Shown here one piece after another: positions 10,370 through 62,376 of a stretch of DNA of 64,000 bases (positions are counted from its first letter, which is position 1; every line of letters begins with the position of its first letter). The stretch covers positions 85,274,419 to 85,338,418 of the forward strand of contig JASCQW010000027.1 in assembly GCA_030264375.1 (NCBI GenBank), written 5' to 3'. This DNA is from Carcharhinus longimanus (lineage: Eukaryota). Below the pieces are notes generated by a model. It did not search any database. It was not told the DNA's origin and saw only the letters and a program-made list of their open reading frames with translations. The position numbers and the translations under genes were made by a program.

Positions 10370-11258
10370 GGTATAGATGTTTCATTAAGAGTAGGGGAGG
10401 CAGTTAAAGAGGTGGAGGAATAGCATTGTTAATCAAAGATAGTTCAATGGATGCTGAAAGGCATTTCGAGGGCAATCTGCCTATTGAGGTAATATGGGCT
10501 GAAGTTAGAAACAGAAAAGGATCGGTCACGCTGTTAGGAGTTTTATATAGATCCCCAAATATCAATAGAGATGTGGAGGAGGAAATAGCAAAGCAGATTA
10601 TGGATAGGTGTGGAGGTCAAAGGGTAGTTATCATGGGTGGCTTTAACTTTCCAAATATTGATTGGAAGCTTTATAGGTCGAATAGTTCGGATGGGACATT
10701 TTTTGTACAGTGTGTGCAGGAGGGTTTCCTGACACCATATGTGGATAAGCCAACAAGAGGTGGGACCACACTGGACTTGGTACTGGGTAATGAATCAGGC
10801 CAAGTGTTAGATTTGTTTGTGGGGGAGCACTTTGGAGATAGTGACCACAATTTGGTATCCTTCATTATTGCAATGGAGAAGGATAGAGTCACACGGCAGG
10901 GCAAGGTTTATAATTAGGGCAGGGGTAATAATGATGTGATTAGGCAAGAATTAAGGAGCATAAAATGGGAACAGAAACTGTCAGGTGTGGGCACAAACTA
11001 AAAGTGGAGTTTCTTCAAGGAACAAATACTGTGTGTCCTTGATAGGTATGTCCCTGTCAGGCAGGGAGGAAATGGCCGAGTGAGGGAACCNNNNNNNNNN
11101 NNNNNNNNNNNNNNNNNNNNNNNNNNNNNNNNNNNNNNNNNNNNNNNNNNNNNNNNNNNNNNNNNNNNNNNNNNNNNNNNNNNNNNNNNNGCTCGGCACA
11201 ACATTGAGGGCCAAAGGGCCTGTACTGTGCTGTAATGTTCTATGTTCTGTGTTCTATC
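10370..11258 (+). mobile_element. CR1 LINE (ORF2 endonuclease, internal gap, 3' tail) nested in the Gypsy element
   Basis: ORF 10426-10917: GVLYRSPN..GGFNFPNIDW..KPTRGGTTLDLVL..EHFGDSDHN (APE domain); after the gap, gggcctgtactgtgctgtaatgttctatgttct tail. Confidence 0.92.
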
Positions 11259-14314: not shown

Positions 14315-14510
14315 TTTCCTGGATTGATGCAGCTCCAACACTAAAGAAGCTCAACACTATCTCGGAAAAGCAGCCCCCTTATTGGCATCACACCCATCAG
14401 CTTTAACGTTCATTCCCTCCACCACACACAGTAACAGCACCTACAAGATACAGCAGTGACTCACCTAGGCTCCATCAACAGCACCTTCCGAATCCAAGAC
14501 TTTGACCATC
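14315..14510 (+). mobile_element. CR1/L2-group LINE ORF2 fragment (same family as 272-640)
   Basis: WIDAAPTLKKLNTI..HSLHH..QHLPNP. Confidence 0.7.
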
Positions 14511-14511
14511 A

Positions 14512-14850
14512 TACAATAATTGAATCCCCACAGTGCAGAAGGAGGTCCATTTGGCTCATAGATGCTCTGCTCGGTGCAGAATCAAACACAGGCCCGCCCC
14601 TAACCCCACATATTTACCCTATTAATCTCCCTAACGTACACATCTTGGGACACTAAGGGACAATTTTAGCATGGCCAATGCATCTAACCTGCACATCTGT
14701 GGATGGAAACCGGAGCACCTGGAGGAAACCCATGCATACACAGGGAGAATGTGCAAACTCCACACAGACAGTGAACCAAGCCAGGATTCGAACCCAGGTC
14801 ACTGGAGCTGTGAAGCAAAAGTGTGAGCCACTGTGCTACCATACCGCCCC
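14512..14850 (-). mobile_element. HE1-type SINE (tRNA head, V-domain, CR1-derived tail)
   Basis: Reverse complement gives gggcggtatggtagcacagtgg..gggttcgaatcc..tgtctgtgtggagtttgcacattctccc..ccttctgcactgtgggga. Confidence 0.9.
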
Positions 14851-16699: not shown

Positions 16700-17310
16700 A
16701 TTTAGAAAACAAGATTTATCATTTGCAGTAGCCAATTTGCCCACAGAAAGATCCCACAAACAGCCACAAAATAACTGACCAGTTCATCTCCTTCNNNNNN
16801 NNNNNNNNNNNNNNNNNNNNNNNNNNNNNNNNNNNNNNNNNNNNNNNNNNNNNNNNNNNNNNNNNNNNNNNNNNNNNNNNNNNNNNNNNNNNNNCTCCTT
16901 CTGGTGTTGGCTGAGGGATTCTTCATGTAGAAGCATGGAATGTTAGACATTTACCTTAGTAAGAAGTCTCACAACACCAGTTAAAGTCCAAAAGGTTTAT
17001 TTGGTAGCACAGCTTTCGGAGCATTGCCCCTTTATCACTTTAGTGGTGATGAAGGGGCAGCGCTCTGAAAGCTCATGCTACCAAATAGACTTGTTACACT
17101 TTAACCTGGTGTTGGAAGACTTCTTACTGTGTCCATCCCAGTCCAACGCCGGCAACTCCACATCATGACATTACCTGGGAGGGCAGATGGGACCTCATTT
17201 TTGCAGCTCACCCAGAAAGGTGGAACCTATGACAACACATGCAGCACCCATGCAGCACTGTACTGATGTGTCCATGAAGATTATGTGCTCAAATCTCTGC
17301 AGTAGCAGAC
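16700..17310 (-). mobile_element. Deu-domain SINE (SacSINE1-like), split by a gap and a Penelope-derived insert
   Basis: gccaatttg..aagatcccacaaacagc and gagggcagatgggacctc..cagaaaggtggaacct..gcagcact blocks typical of DeuSINEs. Confidence 0.65.
16958..17167. mobile_element. Palindromic Penelope terminal-repeat element with hammerhead-like motifs on both strands
   Basis: 16958-17128 is an imperfect inverted repeat (agtaagaagtct...agacttcttact); tgatgaaggggcagcgctctgaaagct on +, mirrored on -; homologous to 41045-41360. Confidence 0.8.
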
Positions 17311-20610: not shown

Positions 20611-20694
20611 GAAGATCCTAGCCAATGCGTGTACTCTCAATGACGTTCTGCACCATGGGGAAGGCTGCAATCCTCATGAACACATGCACTTGCC

Positions 20695-20997
20695 TGGTTG
20701 TGGTACAGTGGTTATTACTGCTGCCTCACTGTGCCAGGGACCTGTGTTTGATTCCCGGCTTGGGTCACAGTATGTGCAAAGTCTGCACATTCCCCCCGTG
20801 TCTGAATAGGGTTCCGCTGGGTGCTCCGGTTTCTTCCCACAGTCTGAAAAACATGCTGGTTAGGTGCACTGGCCATGCTAAATTCTCCTTCGATGTATCC
20901 AAACAGACGCCGGAATGTGTCGACTCAGGGAATTTCATGGTAACTTCATTGCAGCGTTAATGTAAGCCTACTTGTGACACTAATAAATAAACTTTAA
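20695..20997 (+). mobile_element. HE1-related SINE, alternative tail
   Basis: tRNA-like head and V-domain; tail cttcattgcagcgttaatgtaagcctacttgtgacactaataaataaacttt. Confidence 0.9.
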
Positions 20998-21299
20998 ANN
21001 NNNNNNNNNNNNNNNNNNNNNNNNNNNNNNNNNNNNNNNNNNNNNNNNNNNNNNNNNNNNNNNNNNNNNNNNNNNNNNNNNNNNNNNNNNNNNNNNNNAA
21101 TTTCATGGTAACTTCATTGCAGCGTTAATGTAAGCCTACTAGTGACACTAATAAATAAACTTTAAACTTTGTCTCTGACAAGAGAGAGTGAAGTGTAGTT
21201 TGCTCTTATTGAAAGCAGATCTTCTGTGACCTCCCTAAGGGATTGTGGACAGCAACTGTAAGATGTTACAAATATCTCCAGCACCAGACTGGAAGGAGC

Positions 21300-21944: not shown

Positions 21945-22266
21945 ATAGAAACCATACAGTGTAGAAGGAGGCCATTTAGCTCATTGAACCTGCACCAACC
22001 ACAATCCCACCTAGACTCTATTCCCGTAACCCCATGAATTTACCCTGTTAAACCCCCTGTTACTAAGGGACAATTTATCATGGCCAATCCACCTAACAAG
22101 CACATCTTTGGACTGCAGGAGAAAACCGGAGCACCTGGAGGAAGCCTACACAGACACCAGGAGAACGTACAAACTCCACATCGAAAGTGACCTAAGGCCA
22201 GAATTGAATTCGGGTCCCTGGCACTTTGAGGCGGCAATGCTAACCACTGTACCATCGTGCCGCCCA
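21945..22266 (-). mobile_element. HE1-type SINE, near full length
   Basis: Head gggcggcacgatggtacagtggttagc, V-domain and CR1-like tail. Confidence 0.9.
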
Positions 22267-33143: not shown

Positions 33144-33785
33144 GCATCTTTTTGTGTGCAACCAAATAAACAAAATCAACTTAATTTAGGAACAACTCAA
33201 AAGGGGCAACTTTCTAAAAGGAGGTGAACCGCCCAAAACAAAAAACAAAGCTGAAAGGAAACATAAAACATTAAATTAAAATGTGATTAAAGGGATCAAT
33301 AATACATCCCAGCGGGCACGGAAGGCATCAATTGTGCCCTCGGACACCGCATGCTCCCCCTCCAGGGATACCCGCCCACAAATATAGCCGAAGTAGAGGG
33401 GCAGACAGTCGGTTTGGATGACCCCCTCGATCACCTGCTACTTGGACCTGTGGATGGAACGCCTTGCCAGACCCAGGAGCAGGTTCACAAGGATGTCCTC
33501 CTCTGAGGGACAGAGGGATCTAGGTGTGTGTGTACATAGATCCCTGAAAGTTGGGAATCAAGTTGATAAGGTTGTTAAGAAGGCGTNNNNNNNNNNNNNN
33601 NNNNNNNNNNNNNNNNNNNNNNNNNNNNNNNNNNNNNNNNNNNNNNNNNNNNNNNNNNNNNNNNNNNNNNNNNNNNNNNNNNNNNNTTTGTAACTGGTCG
33701 GCGCAACATCGTGGGCCGAAGGGCCTGTTCTGCGCTGTAATGTTCTATGTTCTATGTTCTGTGCCAACCCCCTGCTCTGCACTGA
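33144..33785 (-). mobile_element. 5'-truncated Tx1-clade LINE with 15-bp TSD
   Basis: GVGTEEDILVNLLLGLARRSIHRSK*..DCLPLYFGYICGRVSLEGEHAVS..AFRARW; TSD ggcccttaatcaggg at 33129-33143 and 33786-33800. Confidence 0.8.
33505..33760 (+). mobile_element. Young CR1 LINE (5'-truncated, internal gap)
   Basis: QRDLGVCVHRSLKVGNQVDKVVKKA; tail (gttctat)n. Confidence 0.9.
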
Positions 33786-40600: not shown

Positions 40601-41044
40601 GTCACGATTAGGATGATGTCAGGAACATTTTTCACCCTTGTTATGAACCATATATCACAACTCGAAACATGATTCATGGGGATGTATAGTTTTGTTTTGG
40701 AAGTCATGTGAAGGCCCAGTGAGAAGATCCAGCCCAGTCATTGTGTAACAGTTATTAAACAACATTTATTAAAGATAAGAGTAATGCACAAGTAGGACTA
40801 TAATTCACTGAGATAACTAAATACGTGGGATGGAATTTTCTCTACAAGATTCAAAGGGGCAATCTTATAAAAATAATATTCTGTGTGCCGGGCGTGAAAA
40901 GGGGAGAGTTTCATCATTTTTTCAGCGAGATCACAAATTAAATCTTACGGCACTTTGTGCAAAAGATGCACATTCTGACTCCAACCAGTAGGGGGAGGGT
41001 GTGGGGCCTAAGTTCGCTGGAAAGCTGGCTGTGCTCACTGTACA

Positions 41045-41360
41045 GGATGTGGAGATGCTGGTGTTGGACTGGGATAAACACAGTAAGAAGTCTCACAACA
41101 CCAGGTTAAAGTCCAACAAGTTTATCTGGTAGCAAAAGCCACTAGCTTTTGGAGCACTGCTCCTTCATCAGCTGAGTGGGATTTCAGTTCACAAACAGGG
41201 CATATATAGACACAAACTCAGTTTACAAAATAATAGTTCAAATGCATGTCTTTACAGGTAATCAAGTCTTAAAGGTACAGATAATGTGAGTGGAGAGAGG
41301 GTTAAGCACAGTTAAAGAGATGTGTATTGTCTCCAGCCGGGACAGTTAGTGAGATTTCTC
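41045..41360 (-). mobile_element. Penelope terminal repeat with hammerhead-like motif
   Basis: Minus strand cagCTGATGAaggagcagtgctccAAAAgct (GAAA mutated); homologous to the arms of 16958-17167. Confidence 0.8.
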
Positions 41361-41834
41361 AGAATATGCTATTCCTCAGAGGAAGATACCCAGTTAGCAC
41401 ATTTGACAACTGCACCTCAAAATCTGGAAGGGTGTTACTTTCCATGTTGGATCTTCCTGACTTTTTTTTTGCCTCTTATAGCAATGCTACTTTAAGATGA
41501 CCTGCAGCCTTTTAGTAGCTGCCAGTGCTGGACAACAAGGCCCTTTGCTTCATTCATTGTGAACTGTGAACAATATTGTGCAAAGGAGATGCCTATAGCA
41601 TTACAGGGACACACAGGATGAGAAACAACTATCACTGAGAAACAACTATAACTGTCACTGAGCTGAGATCACATTATCAATCCCTTAAACTTATCAAAAG
41701 CATTGTGCATGTAATTAAGCAACAATTATTTTAGTCCTTTATTTAGTCTTTACAACTTATTAATAAGTAAATAGACTACCAATCAATGAAATTTCAAGGA
41801 AAGTGTTATAAAACTATTAAACAGAAAAAGCTTA

Positions 41835-42108
41835 AAGCGTATTTATTAGTCACAAATAGGCTTACATTAACACTGCAATGAAGTTACCATGAAAATCCAG
41901 CGCCTGTTTGGGTACACTAAGGGAGAATTTGGCTTGGCCAATGTATCTAACCAGCACGTCTTTCAGACTGTGGGAGGAAACCAGAACACCCAAGGAAACT
42001 CATGCAGACACAGGGAAAACGTGCAGACTCCACACAGACAGTGACCCAAGCTGGGAATTGAACACAGGTCCCTGGCAATGTGAGGCAGTATGCTAACCAT
42101 CATGCCAA
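41835..42108 (-). mobile_element. HE1-related SINE, alternative tail
   Basis: Same head and tail as 20695-20997. Confidence 0.88.
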
Positions 42109-42945
42109 CAGGAAGTTTAACTGAAGATTTAAAAACTAACTTTTCCATTTTTAGGAAACTTTTCTGAATGTGTATTTGATCTTTGATAATGGAAGAATTT
42201 CTTTTGAGTTAAAATTACTTTTTCATGAAATCCTCACTAGCTTGACATTGTTGCACTTGCTGCTCATAAGAGCTGAAGTACTCACTCAGTGCCGTGTTTA
42301 AAATATGTGCTTTATGGCATGGCTAGTAACAGTTGAAAAGTTGTATGACCAAATAAAGGAATGTTTTGTTTCACATTCACAGTTAATATAAAACCACCCT
42401 TTAATTATTCAACTGAGATCAAAGATGCATTTTACACTGTTGCTTACTTCAATAAAAAAATTTCTTTAAACAGAAATCAGAATTAGGACTGTACTCTAAC
42501 AGCACATCTGTCTTACATCCTTAAACCTTTGTCAAAGTACCACTATCCATCAATGCACTTCAATCCTTTGGTGACTTTTGTACTGGCAGTATGAACACCT
42601 TCCCATTACTGACCCAAAGAATGCTTCATTCTGTCATCTCCTGAGTGAAAAGTGTTTAGGAGACTGATCCTTAGAGGAAGCCTTCAGTTTGGAACCAGGT
42701 CATTGGGTGTTTAATATGGATCAGTGATTTTAACACAATGTTTTGATGTACATTGGGGCTTCTGACAGGGATGAATGATGATCTGAGTGAAATATAGGTG
42801 CCACACAAAAGACAAGCAATTTGAAAACTTGCTTTGGTCCCACACCAGCAAAGAATATTTATCAAAAGCCTCCTTTGCGCTACAGCTGCAATTTGTATTT
42901 GCTGGGAATTGGCAACTGATTTGTGGTAACATTTTTCACTGCAAA

Positions 42946-57377: not shown

Positions 57378-57639
57378 TAGAGGGGGCAGTTTTTGTACAA
57401 AGCGTGCAGGAAGGTTTTTTGACTCAGTATGTGGATAGGCCAACTAGAGGTGAGGCTATATTGNNNNNNNNNNNNNNNNNNNNNNNNNNNNNNNNNNNNN
57501 NNNNNNNNNNNNNNNNNNNNNNNNNNNNNNNNNNNNNNNNNNNNNNNNNNNNNNNNNNNNNNNTTTTTAACTGGTCGGCGCAACATCGTGGGCCGAAGGG
57601 CCTGTTCTGCGCTGTAATGTTCTATGTTCTATGTTCTAT
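57378..57639 (+). mobile_element. Young CR1 (endonuclease start, gap, 3' tail)
   Basis: FVQSVQEGFLTQYVDRPTRGEAIL; tail identical to 33691-33760. Confidence 0.9.
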
Positions 57640-57650
57640 TTCTCCAATTT

Positions 57651-57925
57651 GCAGCATGTTTGCACAGTAGTTAGCACTGCTGCTTCATGTACCAGGGTTC
57701 TAGGTTCAATTCCCAGCTTGGGTCACTGACCATGCAGACTCTGCACATTCTCCCAGTGTCTGCATGAGTTTCCTCTGGATGCTCGGGTTTCCTCCCACAT
57801 TCCGAAAAACATGCTGGTTATGGGCATTGACCTGAACAGGTGCCTGAGTGTAGTGACTAGGGGATGTTCACAGTGTTAATGTAAGCCTACTTTTGACACT
57901 AATAAATAAACTTAAACTTAAAACT
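57651..57925 (+). mobile_element. HE1-related SINE, alternative tail
   Basis: Head plus gacactaataaataaacttaaactt end. Confidence 0.88.
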
Positions 57926-59684: not shown

Positions 59685-59977
59685 TGCCTCACAGCACTGG
59701 GGACCCAGGTTCGATTCCCGGCCTCGGGTCACTGTCTGTGGGGAGTTTGCACATTCTCCCCTGCGTGGATTTCCTCTGGGTGCTCCGGTTTCCTCCTATA
59801 GACCAAAAATGTGCAGGTTAGGTGGATTGGCCATGCTAAATTGTCCATTAGTGTCAAGGGATTAGCAGGGCAAATACATGGCGTTACAGCCATAGGGCCT
59901 GGGTAGGATTGTGTTCAGTGAAGACTCGATGGGCTGAATGGCCTCCTTCTGCACTGTAAGATTCTATGATTCTATGA
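59685..59977 (+). mobile_element. HE1-type SINE
   Basis: B box ggttcgattccc, V-domain, tail gattctatgattctatga. Confidence 0.9.
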
Positions 59978-60061
59978 TACTGTTTGTTTTTTCATTACTG
60001 ATACATAGTATATAAAAAAAAAGAATGAGCAAAAATATGGAACAAGAACAAAAGCCAATAT

Positions 60062-60940: not shown

Positions 60941-61144
60941 AATTTGATGATTGCCAAAGTAATGAAACACTCCATAATAACAGTTGTTAACTTAGACAAA
61001 ATGTAAGTGAGTGTGGGCATGTTATTCTCTTTCCAGTAAATAAATGCCAACATACAATAATGACACAAGAGCACTGCTCTAGTCACCTTACTTGTAAAGT
61101 AAGCGGGCGCATCAGAAAGGTTTGACATGGTATATCAGCATACC

Positions 61145-61445
61145 TGGGTGGCACAGTGGCTAGCACTTCTGCCTCACAGCGCCAGGGACTTGAGTTCGAT
61201 TCCTGGCTTGGATCACTATCTGTGTGGAGTTCGCATGTCCTCCCCATGTCTGCATGATTTTCCTCCGGGTGCTCCAGTTCCCTCCCACAGTCGGAAAGAC
61301 ATACTGGTTAGATGCATTAGCCATGCTAAGTTCTCCCTCAGTGTACCTGAACAGACACCGGAGTGTGGTGACTTGGAGATTTTCACTGTGACTTCATTGA
61401 AATCTTAATGTAAGGCTACTTGTGACACTCAAAGATAAACCTTTA
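61145..61445 (+). mobile_element. HE1-related SINE, alternative tail
   Basis: Same architecture as 20695-20997. Confidence 0.88.
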
Positions 61446-62376
61446 AAACAAACACAAGCAACTAGACCAATGTTTCCCCAACACTTGGGATCAATGCCCC
61501 TGAAATAGTAGTTTATTTCACAGTATGAATCAGATTAGTATGTATTTTCAGTGATATTTACTCAGCAATAAGAGGGAAGCTATTTCCTTGTTGAATTGAA
61601 GAAGCCACATTAAAACACGTGACAAGCATATCAGCATGAGTCTGAATATGCAACAGATTTCATCATTCCAAGGAACGGAAAGCTGAGTCTTGGCTTCTGG
61701 TACTTTGTTTTTGAAGCATTTCCCTGACCCCACTTTTCTATTAACTGTTACACCGGCACCAAACGGCGTAACAGATCACTGAAATGCTGAACCACCCTAT
61801 TGCAGACCACACACTGCCACGGACATCTGGACATAATCTCAACCTTTACTGCCGAATTTCAGAATGAACCTCGCCTACAAGATACTTTTCTGAAAAAAAG
61901 CCTGTCAGGGAATGTGTTACATTTTATTTAAAACAATTTAGCTTTTATCACATTCACATACCAAAAGGGTGAGCTATACTGTCGGGTAGATAGGTACATG
62001 AAAGCAGGAGAAATATGTGATGAATTCCTTTTTGTTCCATTATCGCCTCCTCAGCTTATCTTTGCTCAAACCCCTTTCAGATTTGATGGGATTCATCAAT
62101 CAAATTTTAATTCATGTTGTCCTCTCTAAGTTGTATGTATATTTGTTTCTATTTTAAATATAGAAATTGGTTCCTCTTAAAACATCTTGCACATTGTCAC
62201 GTTTGTGCAACCGTCTTTTCTTGTTTCCAACTCGACATTATTTGTATCCACCAGTTTTGTTCAGAATCCCAGATGAAAGGTTAAGGCCAGTGCCGCAGGA
62301 TACCACCAAGGTTGAAAAGGCAAGATTAATGAAGAGAGAGCAAATGAACAATGCTCAGCTTCTGTTTTAATAGCAT

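What the first reader, a model, noticed from the sequence alone, without database searches (positions are those of the whole stretch)
16946..17176. Palindromic double-hammerhead Penelope-derived mini-element inserted in a DeuSINE
Seen: a ~170-bp imperfect palindrome (16958-17128) plus a 39-nt tail, flanked by near-duplicated gacat(t)tacct, splitting a DeuSINE. Each arm carries a TGATRA-stem-GAAAG motif, so both strands encode a hammerhead-like core, although the cores here read GTGATGA/GTGATAA rather than CTGATGA. Known: Penelope-like element terminal repeats carry minimal hammerheads and often form inverted arrangements. Inference: a non-coding mobile unit of ~200 bp whose transcript from either strand is a long dsRNA hairpin and may once have self-cleaved, like a retrozyme or SINE.
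Basis: partly seen in the sequence, partly recalled or inferred. Interest (0 to 1): 0.7.

Follow-up and report, generated by a model that had tools for sequence, protein, structure and literature searches.

The report
Mirror-image Penelope stub in shark DNA
This 210-base mirror-image stretch is a stump-sized insertion of a common Penelope-type jumping gene with broken ribozyme motifs, likely not a self-spreading element; many such stumps stop at one spot and often carry an extra G there, which likely marks copying off the capped start of the element's own RNA.

Summary
The palindrome, 39-nt tail, target duplication and split host repeat are real. Both arms are the end (pLTR) of a Neptune-type Penelope-like element, whose RT/GIY-YIG parent I traced in the genome. 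Inverted arm + one-sided tail + TSD is a published PLE footprint, and this scan noted it before in other shark genomes (72 notes). It is not a heritable SINE or retrozyme: arm lengths run from about 30 nt to over 1 kb, junctions differ, palindromes recur in several parent subfamilies, both hammerhead cores here are broken, and 0 of 100 arms end at the cut site. What is added: 36 of 98 unbiased arms stop within -3..+10 of a site 31 nt behind a TATA box; about 70% of arms ending exactly there with a non-template base carry an extra G (27% expected); 27 of 34 pairs carry exactly one tail. Best reading (inferred): two cDNAs, primed at both target nicks from two internal start sites, run off a capped, uncut sense RNA and are joined head to head.

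The parts
16946..16956 (+). Left copy of the target-site duplication (11 nt); host-repeat sequence
   Evidence: fits the host repeat model in register
16958..17046 (-). Inverted short arm: pLTR from about the predicted start (+1, to about -2) to +89; no tail
   Evidence: 90% identical to the in-script family reference over 91 nt; outer end in the +86..+100 class
17004..17038 (-). Broken minimal hammerhead of the left arm: C3 to G, G8 to A, cleavage-site base missing
   Evidence: read against the family; fails the descriptor that the family reference passes
17039..17046 (.). Head-to-head junction; the G that replaces C3 of the right core comes from the left arm
   Evidence: alignment (same junction type in L007)
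17047..17128 (+). Direct arm: pLTR +8 to +89
   Evidence: 89% identical to the reference over 17047-17167
17046..17077 (+). Broken minimal hammerhead of the right arm: stem I and C3 lost at the junction, C11.1 to U
   Evidence: fails descriptor
17129..17167 (+). 39-nt PLE tail, ending on the ATG (17165-17167) that opens the parent ORF
   Evidence: L147 and L155 run from this tail into the ORF; outer end in the +122..+137 class
17167..17176 (+). Right copy of the target-site duplication (10 nt)
16702..16956 (+). 5' part of the old SINE-like host repeat (interrupted by a 100-N gap, 16795-16894)
   Evidence: E 4e-10 for the piece before the gap; the piece after the gap aligns only as part of the empty site
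17168..17300 (+). 3' part of the old SINE-like host repeat (DeuSINE by recall only)
   Evidence: E 1e-11
41043..41357 (-). Second copy of the same family in the window: single 5'-truncated pLTR (-180 to +128) with TATA and tail, no inverted arm

Best explanation
The element is a short head-to-head insertion of the end (pLTR plus tail) of a Neptune-type Penelope-like retrotransposon, likely built anew at each landing from two short cDNAs that ran off the capped 5' end of the element's own RNA. Shown: origin of both arms, two fixed outer ends (+86..+100 and +122..+137), variable junctions that pile up at one site, an extra G at that site, TSDs, broken hammerheads. Inferred: the site is a Pol II start (TATA at -31, initiator-like CCCACT); the enzyme nicks both target strands, primes reverse transcription from each nick at one of two internal start sites flanking the tail, and, when it uses the tail copy near the RNA's 5' end, reaches the cap after only 90-130 nt; the two cDNA ends are trimmed and joined, often by 1-3 nt microhomology. 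The product lacks the TATA box and is predicted to be dead on arrival; any read-through RNA would fold into one long hairpin that buries the hammerhead.
For: Parent: arms continue upstream through a TATA region into a GIY-YIG C-terminus with a Cx4CxxC linker and downstream from the tail into the ORF; RT pieces hit PF00078 (4 of 7 pieces, best E 2e-7); best relatives are shark proteins at 74-84%, and more distant ones carry PF00078 + PF01541. Unbiased 1.47 Mb: 98 arms, outer ends 47 at +86..+100, 50 at +122..+137, 1 between; inner ends 36 in -3..+10 against 4 and 2 in the equal stretches either side (p 3e-12). Genome-wide: of 10,786 arms reaching +1, the next base corresponds to an added G in 1,172 and to A/T in 861; by eye about 4 of 100 of the first and 44 of 100 of the second are merely substitutions in arms that continue, giving about 70% G among true ends, 27% expected; about 64% among arms with no partner arm. 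Control at +4: about 6 of 19 true ends (by eye; P = 6e-4 under 70%). An extra G at full-length 5' junctions is read as the cap for L1 (PMC11702581, passage). Exactly one tail in 27 of 34 pairs (p 8e-4). Either arm may reach further 5' (tail arm in 5, short arm in 8, level in 14 of 27). TSD in 8 of 20, 7 of 14, 23 of 33 pairs against 2, 1, 1 in shifted controls. In vitro, an anole PLE cuts and extends both strands, starts at two internal sites bounding the tail, is predicted to be a dimer and uses uncut RNA (PMC11167929).
Against: The start site is predicted from sequence only; no raw RNA reads were available. The window copy itself does not show the extra G (its left arm reaches about -2). 21 of 100 arms end at -1..-6 and many end downstream of +1, so the pile-up is a zone, not a point (by eye). 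The direct comparison of the two small by-eye samples alone (11 of 17 against 6 of 19) gives p = 0.09. The base after the added one is A in 61 of 100 rows (by eye), which the cap alone does not explain. 52 of 100 arms continue upstream past the TATA box and need longer templates. 4 tail-tail and 3 no-tail pairs of 34 do not fit strict coupling. The biochemistry cited is for a Poseidon-clade element whose ORF starts inside the hammerhead, not at the tail end. Twin priming and fold-back followed by trimming leave similar scars.
Confidence: 0.62

Rival explanations
1. Same PLE origin, but the inverted arm is made by fold-back or self-priming of one cDNA (or on an antisense template), and the one-sided tail comes from endonuclease resolution of the intermediate.
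For: Proposed in PMC3846280 (Discussion) and PMC8557442 (passage). The two arms of a locus mostly share subfamily letters (about 43 of 50 by eye) and are slightly more alike (0.87) than arms of different loci (0.845-0.854). It explains one-tail pairs directly.
Against: A copy-back arm cannot reach further 5' than its template, yet either arm can be the longer (5 against 8 of 27), and one pair overlaps by only 9 nt (+83..+137 with +1..+91). The extra G points to a capped sense template, not an antisense one. About 4 of 50 pairs differ in a subfamily letter (could be later mutation).
Confidence: 0.22
2. Longer inverted insertions collapsed afterwards by deletion of the palindrome centre, leaving about 200-bp stumps.
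For: Long inverted copies exist (672 and 1,276 bp), junctions show microhomology, and long palindromes are unstable (own knowledge).
Against: Deletion would not favour +1 nor add a G there; single arms with no partner also stop at +1 with the G (about 30 of 100 rows, by eye; L147).
Confidence: 0.09
3. One reading: a heritable non-autonomous mini-element (SINE- or retrozyme-like) that spreads as a unit and once self-cleaved.
For: About half of the unbiased pairs (10 of 20) have the window's size class, roughly 14,000 in the genome (6,600-27,500); outer ends are fixed; some junctions recur (68 exact copies); 39 other top hits share the boundaries (selected for that).
Against: Junction variety; the recurring junction is a 3-nt microhomology found in several subfamilies; only 3 of 88 columns differ between short and tail arms at p<0.05, two at CpG sites and biased by query choice; no promoter inside; 0 of 67 pairs keep both hammerheads, and the stem II closing pair has probability at most 0.02 inside the palindrome in 7 of 7 copies tested; 0 of 100 arms end at the cut site; not tandem.
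Confidence: 0.05

Closest known systems
Insertions of endonuclease-bearing Penelope-like elements with inverted 5'-truncated pLTR, optional 30-40 bp tail and TSD (PMC3846280, passages and Discussion; PMC8557442, passages)
   Same: Head-to-head inverted pLTRs, one-sided tail, TSD, TATA plus initiator-like motif in the pLTR, heavy 5' truncation.
   Different: Here both arms are cut down to 90-130 nt, no ORF is left, and inner ends pile up at the predicted start with an extra G, which the passages read do not describe.
Minimal hammerheads of metazoan PLEs (PMC4209133, Results and Discussion read)
   Same: Family reference has the min-HHR plan: short stem I, extra base before stem II, palindromic 15.2-16.2, no loop 3. 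The paper already reports dual min-HHRs 100-700 bp apart on opposite strands, ascribed to truncated PLEs.
   Different: Both cores of this copy are broken; opposite-strand cores cannot form the same-strand dimer that the paper says is needed.
Poseidon element of Anolis (PAc) in vitro (PMC11167929, main text read)
   Same: Two internal RT start sites bounding the tail; both strands cut and extended; uncut RNA is the template.
   Different: Different clade; PAc ORF starts within the hammerhead, here at the tail end; the paper does not treat inverted insertions or run-off at a cap.
Non-LTR retrozymes (bioRxiv 10.64898/2026.07.22.740005, first fifth and passages)
   Same: PLE pLTR origin, type I hammerhead, non-coding.
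   Different: Defined by tandem units each with a complete hammerhead; this is an inverted, dispersed pair with none intact.
L1 twin priming and cap-derived extra G (PMC11702581, passages)
   Same: Second priming from the opposite target end gives an inversion with preserved TSD; extra G at complete 5' ends.
   Different: L1 arms cover adjacent, non-overlapping parts of the RNA; here both arms cover the same part, from fixed start sites, giving a palindrome.

Membership tests
EN+ Penelope-like element insertion | Parent ORF with RT and C-terminal GIY-YIG endonuclease | tested here: met
   RT: PF00078; GIY-YIG motif in the translated majority, weak PF01541 in 1 of 7 pieces (E 0.005, below cut-off), and in relatives
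EN+ Penelope-like element insertion | pLTR with minimal hammerhead | tested here: met
   reference passes the descriptor; intact in 6 of 54, 2 of 21, 3 of 40 arms
EN+ Penelope-like element insertion | Inverted truncated copy, 30-40 bp tail, TSD | tested here: met
Neptune clade | CX2-5CxxC linker between RT and EN (shared with Nematis) | tested here: met
   translation; definition in PMC8557442
Neptune clade | RT phylogeny with reference Neptune elements | not tested
   no labelled reference set at hand; no tree built
Non-LTR retrozyme | Tandem head-to-tail units | tested here: not met
   head-to-head, dispersed
Non-LTR retrozyme | Complete hammerhead in each unit | tested here: not met
   both cores broken; 0 of 67 pairs keep both
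Non-LTR retrozyme | Self-cleavage and circular RNA | not testable with these tools
   no raw RNA reads; no bench
SINE-like non-autonomous family | Copies descend from a master with a fixed internal structure | tested here: not met
   variable junctions and several subfamilies; no side-specific letters beyond chance
SINE-like non-autonomous family | Own promoter inside the unit | tested here: inconclusive
   TATA lies outside the unit; downstream promoter elements, known for Drosophila Penelope (PMC2377424), were not tested
DeuSINE (host repeat) | Deu-domain homology | not testable with these tools
   name recalled; no reference sequence obtained; only an old interspersed repeat is shown

The most novel reading that the evidence does not exclude
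Shark genomes hold a fossil record of Penelope 'strong-stop' DNA: thousands of stubs made by twin-primed run-off from a capped, uncut sense RNA. This would fix the element's transcription start to the base, argue against the published antisense self-priming idea, explain head-to-head inverted pLTRs with a one-sided tail, and show that hammerhead cleavage is bypassed in most insertions.
Probability: 0.5. Interest if true: 0.6.

Novelty: new member of a known kind. Interest (0 to 1): 0.37.

Why it matters
The locus itself is an ordinary fossil. The population statistics matter: how PLEs make inverted repeats, and whether they copy a sense or antisense RNA, is stated as open in PMC3846280 and PMC8557442. 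A base-exact pile-up with an extra G, and one tail per pair, give sharp predictions for an in vitro system that already exists (PMC11167929). Practically, about 14,000 such hairpins would be mis-called as miRNA precursors or new ribozyme SINEs.

Tried and rejected
Rfam: no hammerhead model hit; miRNA hits are generic hairpins. Hammerhead cleavage as the source of arm ends: 0 of 100 rows (one subfamily only, last base filtered) and 3 of 148 local arms ending at +36 (by eye); the apparent cluster at +36..+43 is mostly related subfamilies with a different hammerhead region. First Pfam scan of four broken pieces gave nothing; PDB sequence search gave nothing meaningful; the protein atlas was not available. 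blastn and single-sequence nhmmer barely found the host repeat; an early profile that included this locus was discarded. Expression: no RNA holder listed; contigs of four possibly-RNA runs from other organisms hold the family but cannot show a start, strand or level. No empty allele was seen: contigs of a second organism span the tail-flank junction with 6-7 differences in about 275 nt. The 30 best BLAST hits were not used for the pile-up or one-tail counts because they are selected for the window's shape. Literature searches found no paper on a start-site pile-up or cap G in PLE insertions; subscription papers, the 2005-2006 PLE reviews, Repbase and Dfam were not seen, and supplements of PMC11167929 and the bioRxiv preprint were not read and may bear on this.

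Full report
Observation. The described structure is there. 16958-17128 is an imperfect palindrome (83-86% in three blocks; z = -14.3), followed by 39 nt without a mirror, and bounded by an 11/10-nt duplication. It splits an old repeat: a profile made from other copies aligns across the empty site. That the repeat is a DeuSINE is recalled, not tested.

Origin. A search of the own genome gave 9,144 candidates; the 39 best other hits cover the same span, but they are selected for that. Walking out from longer copies gave the parent: upstream of the arm lie a TATA-like box and the end of an ORF with a Cx4CxxC linker and GIY-YIG motifs; downstream, the tail ends on the ATG of the ORF (L147, L155). 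Open pieces hit the RT family PF00078 (4 of 7); closest proteins are from sharks, and relatives combine RT with GIY-YIG. The linker suggests the Neptune clade (PMC8557442, passages); no tree was built. One 33-mer of the arm occurs 15,760 times exactly.

Known layout. An inverted truncated copy, an optional 30-40 bp tail and a TSD are described for PLEs (PMC3846280, passages and Discussion; PMC8557442, passages); opposite-strand minimal hammerheads 100-700 bp apart were reported and ascribed to truncated PLEs (PMC4209133, Results and Discussion). This scan noted the same thing in other shark genomes (72 notes, 8 shown; unchecked AI notes, read after my own reading was written); two further word searches for a cap G found none.

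Unbiased census. In 1,466,100 non-N bases (1.6 Mb of tiles plus the window) there are 98 arms and 20 head-to-head pairs. Positions are relative to the A of the predicted start; the script's scale includes a zero. Outer ends fall in two classes (47 at +86..+100, 50 at +122..+137, 1 between). Pairs run from 149 to 1,276 bp; 10 of 20 have the window's shape, about 14,000 in the genome (6,600-27,500). TSDs were found in 8 of 20, 7 of 14 and 23 of 33 pairs of three sets, against 2, 1 and 1 in controls; the window copy scored just under the cut because its two copies differ by one base in length.

Not a heritable unit. 1,220 loci have both arms with a 55-85 nt centre; the 50 listed have diverse junctions and belong to at least five subfamilies, the two arms of a locus mostly to the same one (about 43 of 50, by eye). 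The commonest recurring junction is a 3-nt microhomology and is spread over several subfamilies (68 copies). Short and tail arms show no distinguishing letters beyond chance (3 of 88 columns). So the palindrome is formed again and again from the parent RNA.

Hammerheads. The family reference has the minimal type I plan, but only 11 of 115 arms keep it and 0 of 67 pairs keep both. In this copy both are broken; the G at core position 3 of the right arm is a junction product. Each strand carries only one sense core, and in 7 of 7 copies with an intact core the palindrome suppresses stem II (probability at most 0.02; 0.00-0.98 in the lone arm). Arm ends do not mark the cut site: 0 of 100, 3 of 148 locally.

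The added signal. Inner ends pile up: 36 of 98 in -3..+10, against 4 and 2 in equal stretches either side. The site lies 31 nt behind the TATA box in an initiator-like context (consensus recalled). Of 10,786 arms that reach it, 1,172 have a G in front and 861 an A or T, where the template has C. By eye about 4 of 100 G rows and 44 of 100 A/T rows are arms that simply continue, so about 70% of true ends carry G (27% expected), about 64% in arms without partner; at a control position 3 nt away it is about 6 of 19. For L1, such a G is read as the cap (PMC11702581, passage). In contigs of three other organisms, 6 of the 8 strand-switch joints shown have one side within -3..+11 of the site (47 joints not shown). 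Exactly one arm has the tail in 27 of 34 pairs (p = 8e-4), and either arm may be the longer at the inner end (5, 8, 14 level).

Mechanism. The anole PLE cuts and extends both strands, starts at two internal sites bounding the tail, and uses uncut RNA (PMC11167929, main text). Put together (inference): each nick primes at one start site; on the tail copy just behind the cap, synthesis runs off after 90-130 nt; the two ends are trimmed and joined. Starting on a tail copy at the RNA's far end would give the long arms (52 of 100 continue upstream). Against: the start is unmapped in RNA, the window copy shows no G, ends spread over a zone, an A follows the added base in 61 of 100 rows unexplained, the small-sample control alone gives p = 0.09, and fold-back with trimming cannot be excluded.

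Verdict. The locus is an ordinary, old (about 10% from the family majority; junction shared with a second organism) PLE stub. Identity about 0.93 certain; the twin run-off mechanism about 0.6. Interest is modest and rests on the cap-G and one-tail statistics, which make an open question testable. Other papers seen: PMC2377424 (abstract, Discussion), PMC4824008 (passages; 2 of 3 supplements searched), bioRxiv 10.64898/2026.07.22.740005 (first fifth, passages), PMC11371274 (search listing only).

Noticed in passing
rows (whole genome): After the added base the next letter is A in 61 of 100 rows, about 22 of 30 in arms without partner (by eye): a second untemplated base, CpG decay or a target preference; unexplained.
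   Followed up: partly
G000:C1:24056288, C1:116442270 and 116442487, C1:158628506: A few arms are joined at about +1 to same-strand sequence from the start of the ORF (about +160..+200), suggesting further start sites downstream, template jumps or circular templates.
   Followed up: no
window 17146-17155: The tail holds a conserved self-complementary GCCGGC core, a possible RNA dimer contact or protein site.
   Followed up: no
window 17031-17046: On the antisense strand the family reads like a 5' splice site at the hammerhead's 5' end, so copies lying antisense in introns could act as cryptic donors; degraded in this copy.
   Followed up: no
window 16795-16894, 20931-21166, 33587-33760 with 57464-57639 and 11091-11257: 100-N gaps with overlapping or repeated sequence at their edges: likely unmerged assembly overlaps, and gaps that end in the same repeat.
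   Followed up: no
random blocks, e.g. L072 1288-1530, L107, L110: A related subfamily with a different hammerhead region often sits beside assembly gaps, which suggests younger, more perfect palindromes that failed to assemble; counts may under-represent them.
   Followed up: no
window 14508-14849, 20693-20998, 21945-22265, 41832-42110, 57662-57916, 59685-59978, 61143-61447: Abundant SINE-sized repeats, 70-80% alike; not identified.
   Followed up: no
window 10408-10914 (+): 169-aa open frame that looks by eye like a LINE endonuclease fragment.
   Followed up: no
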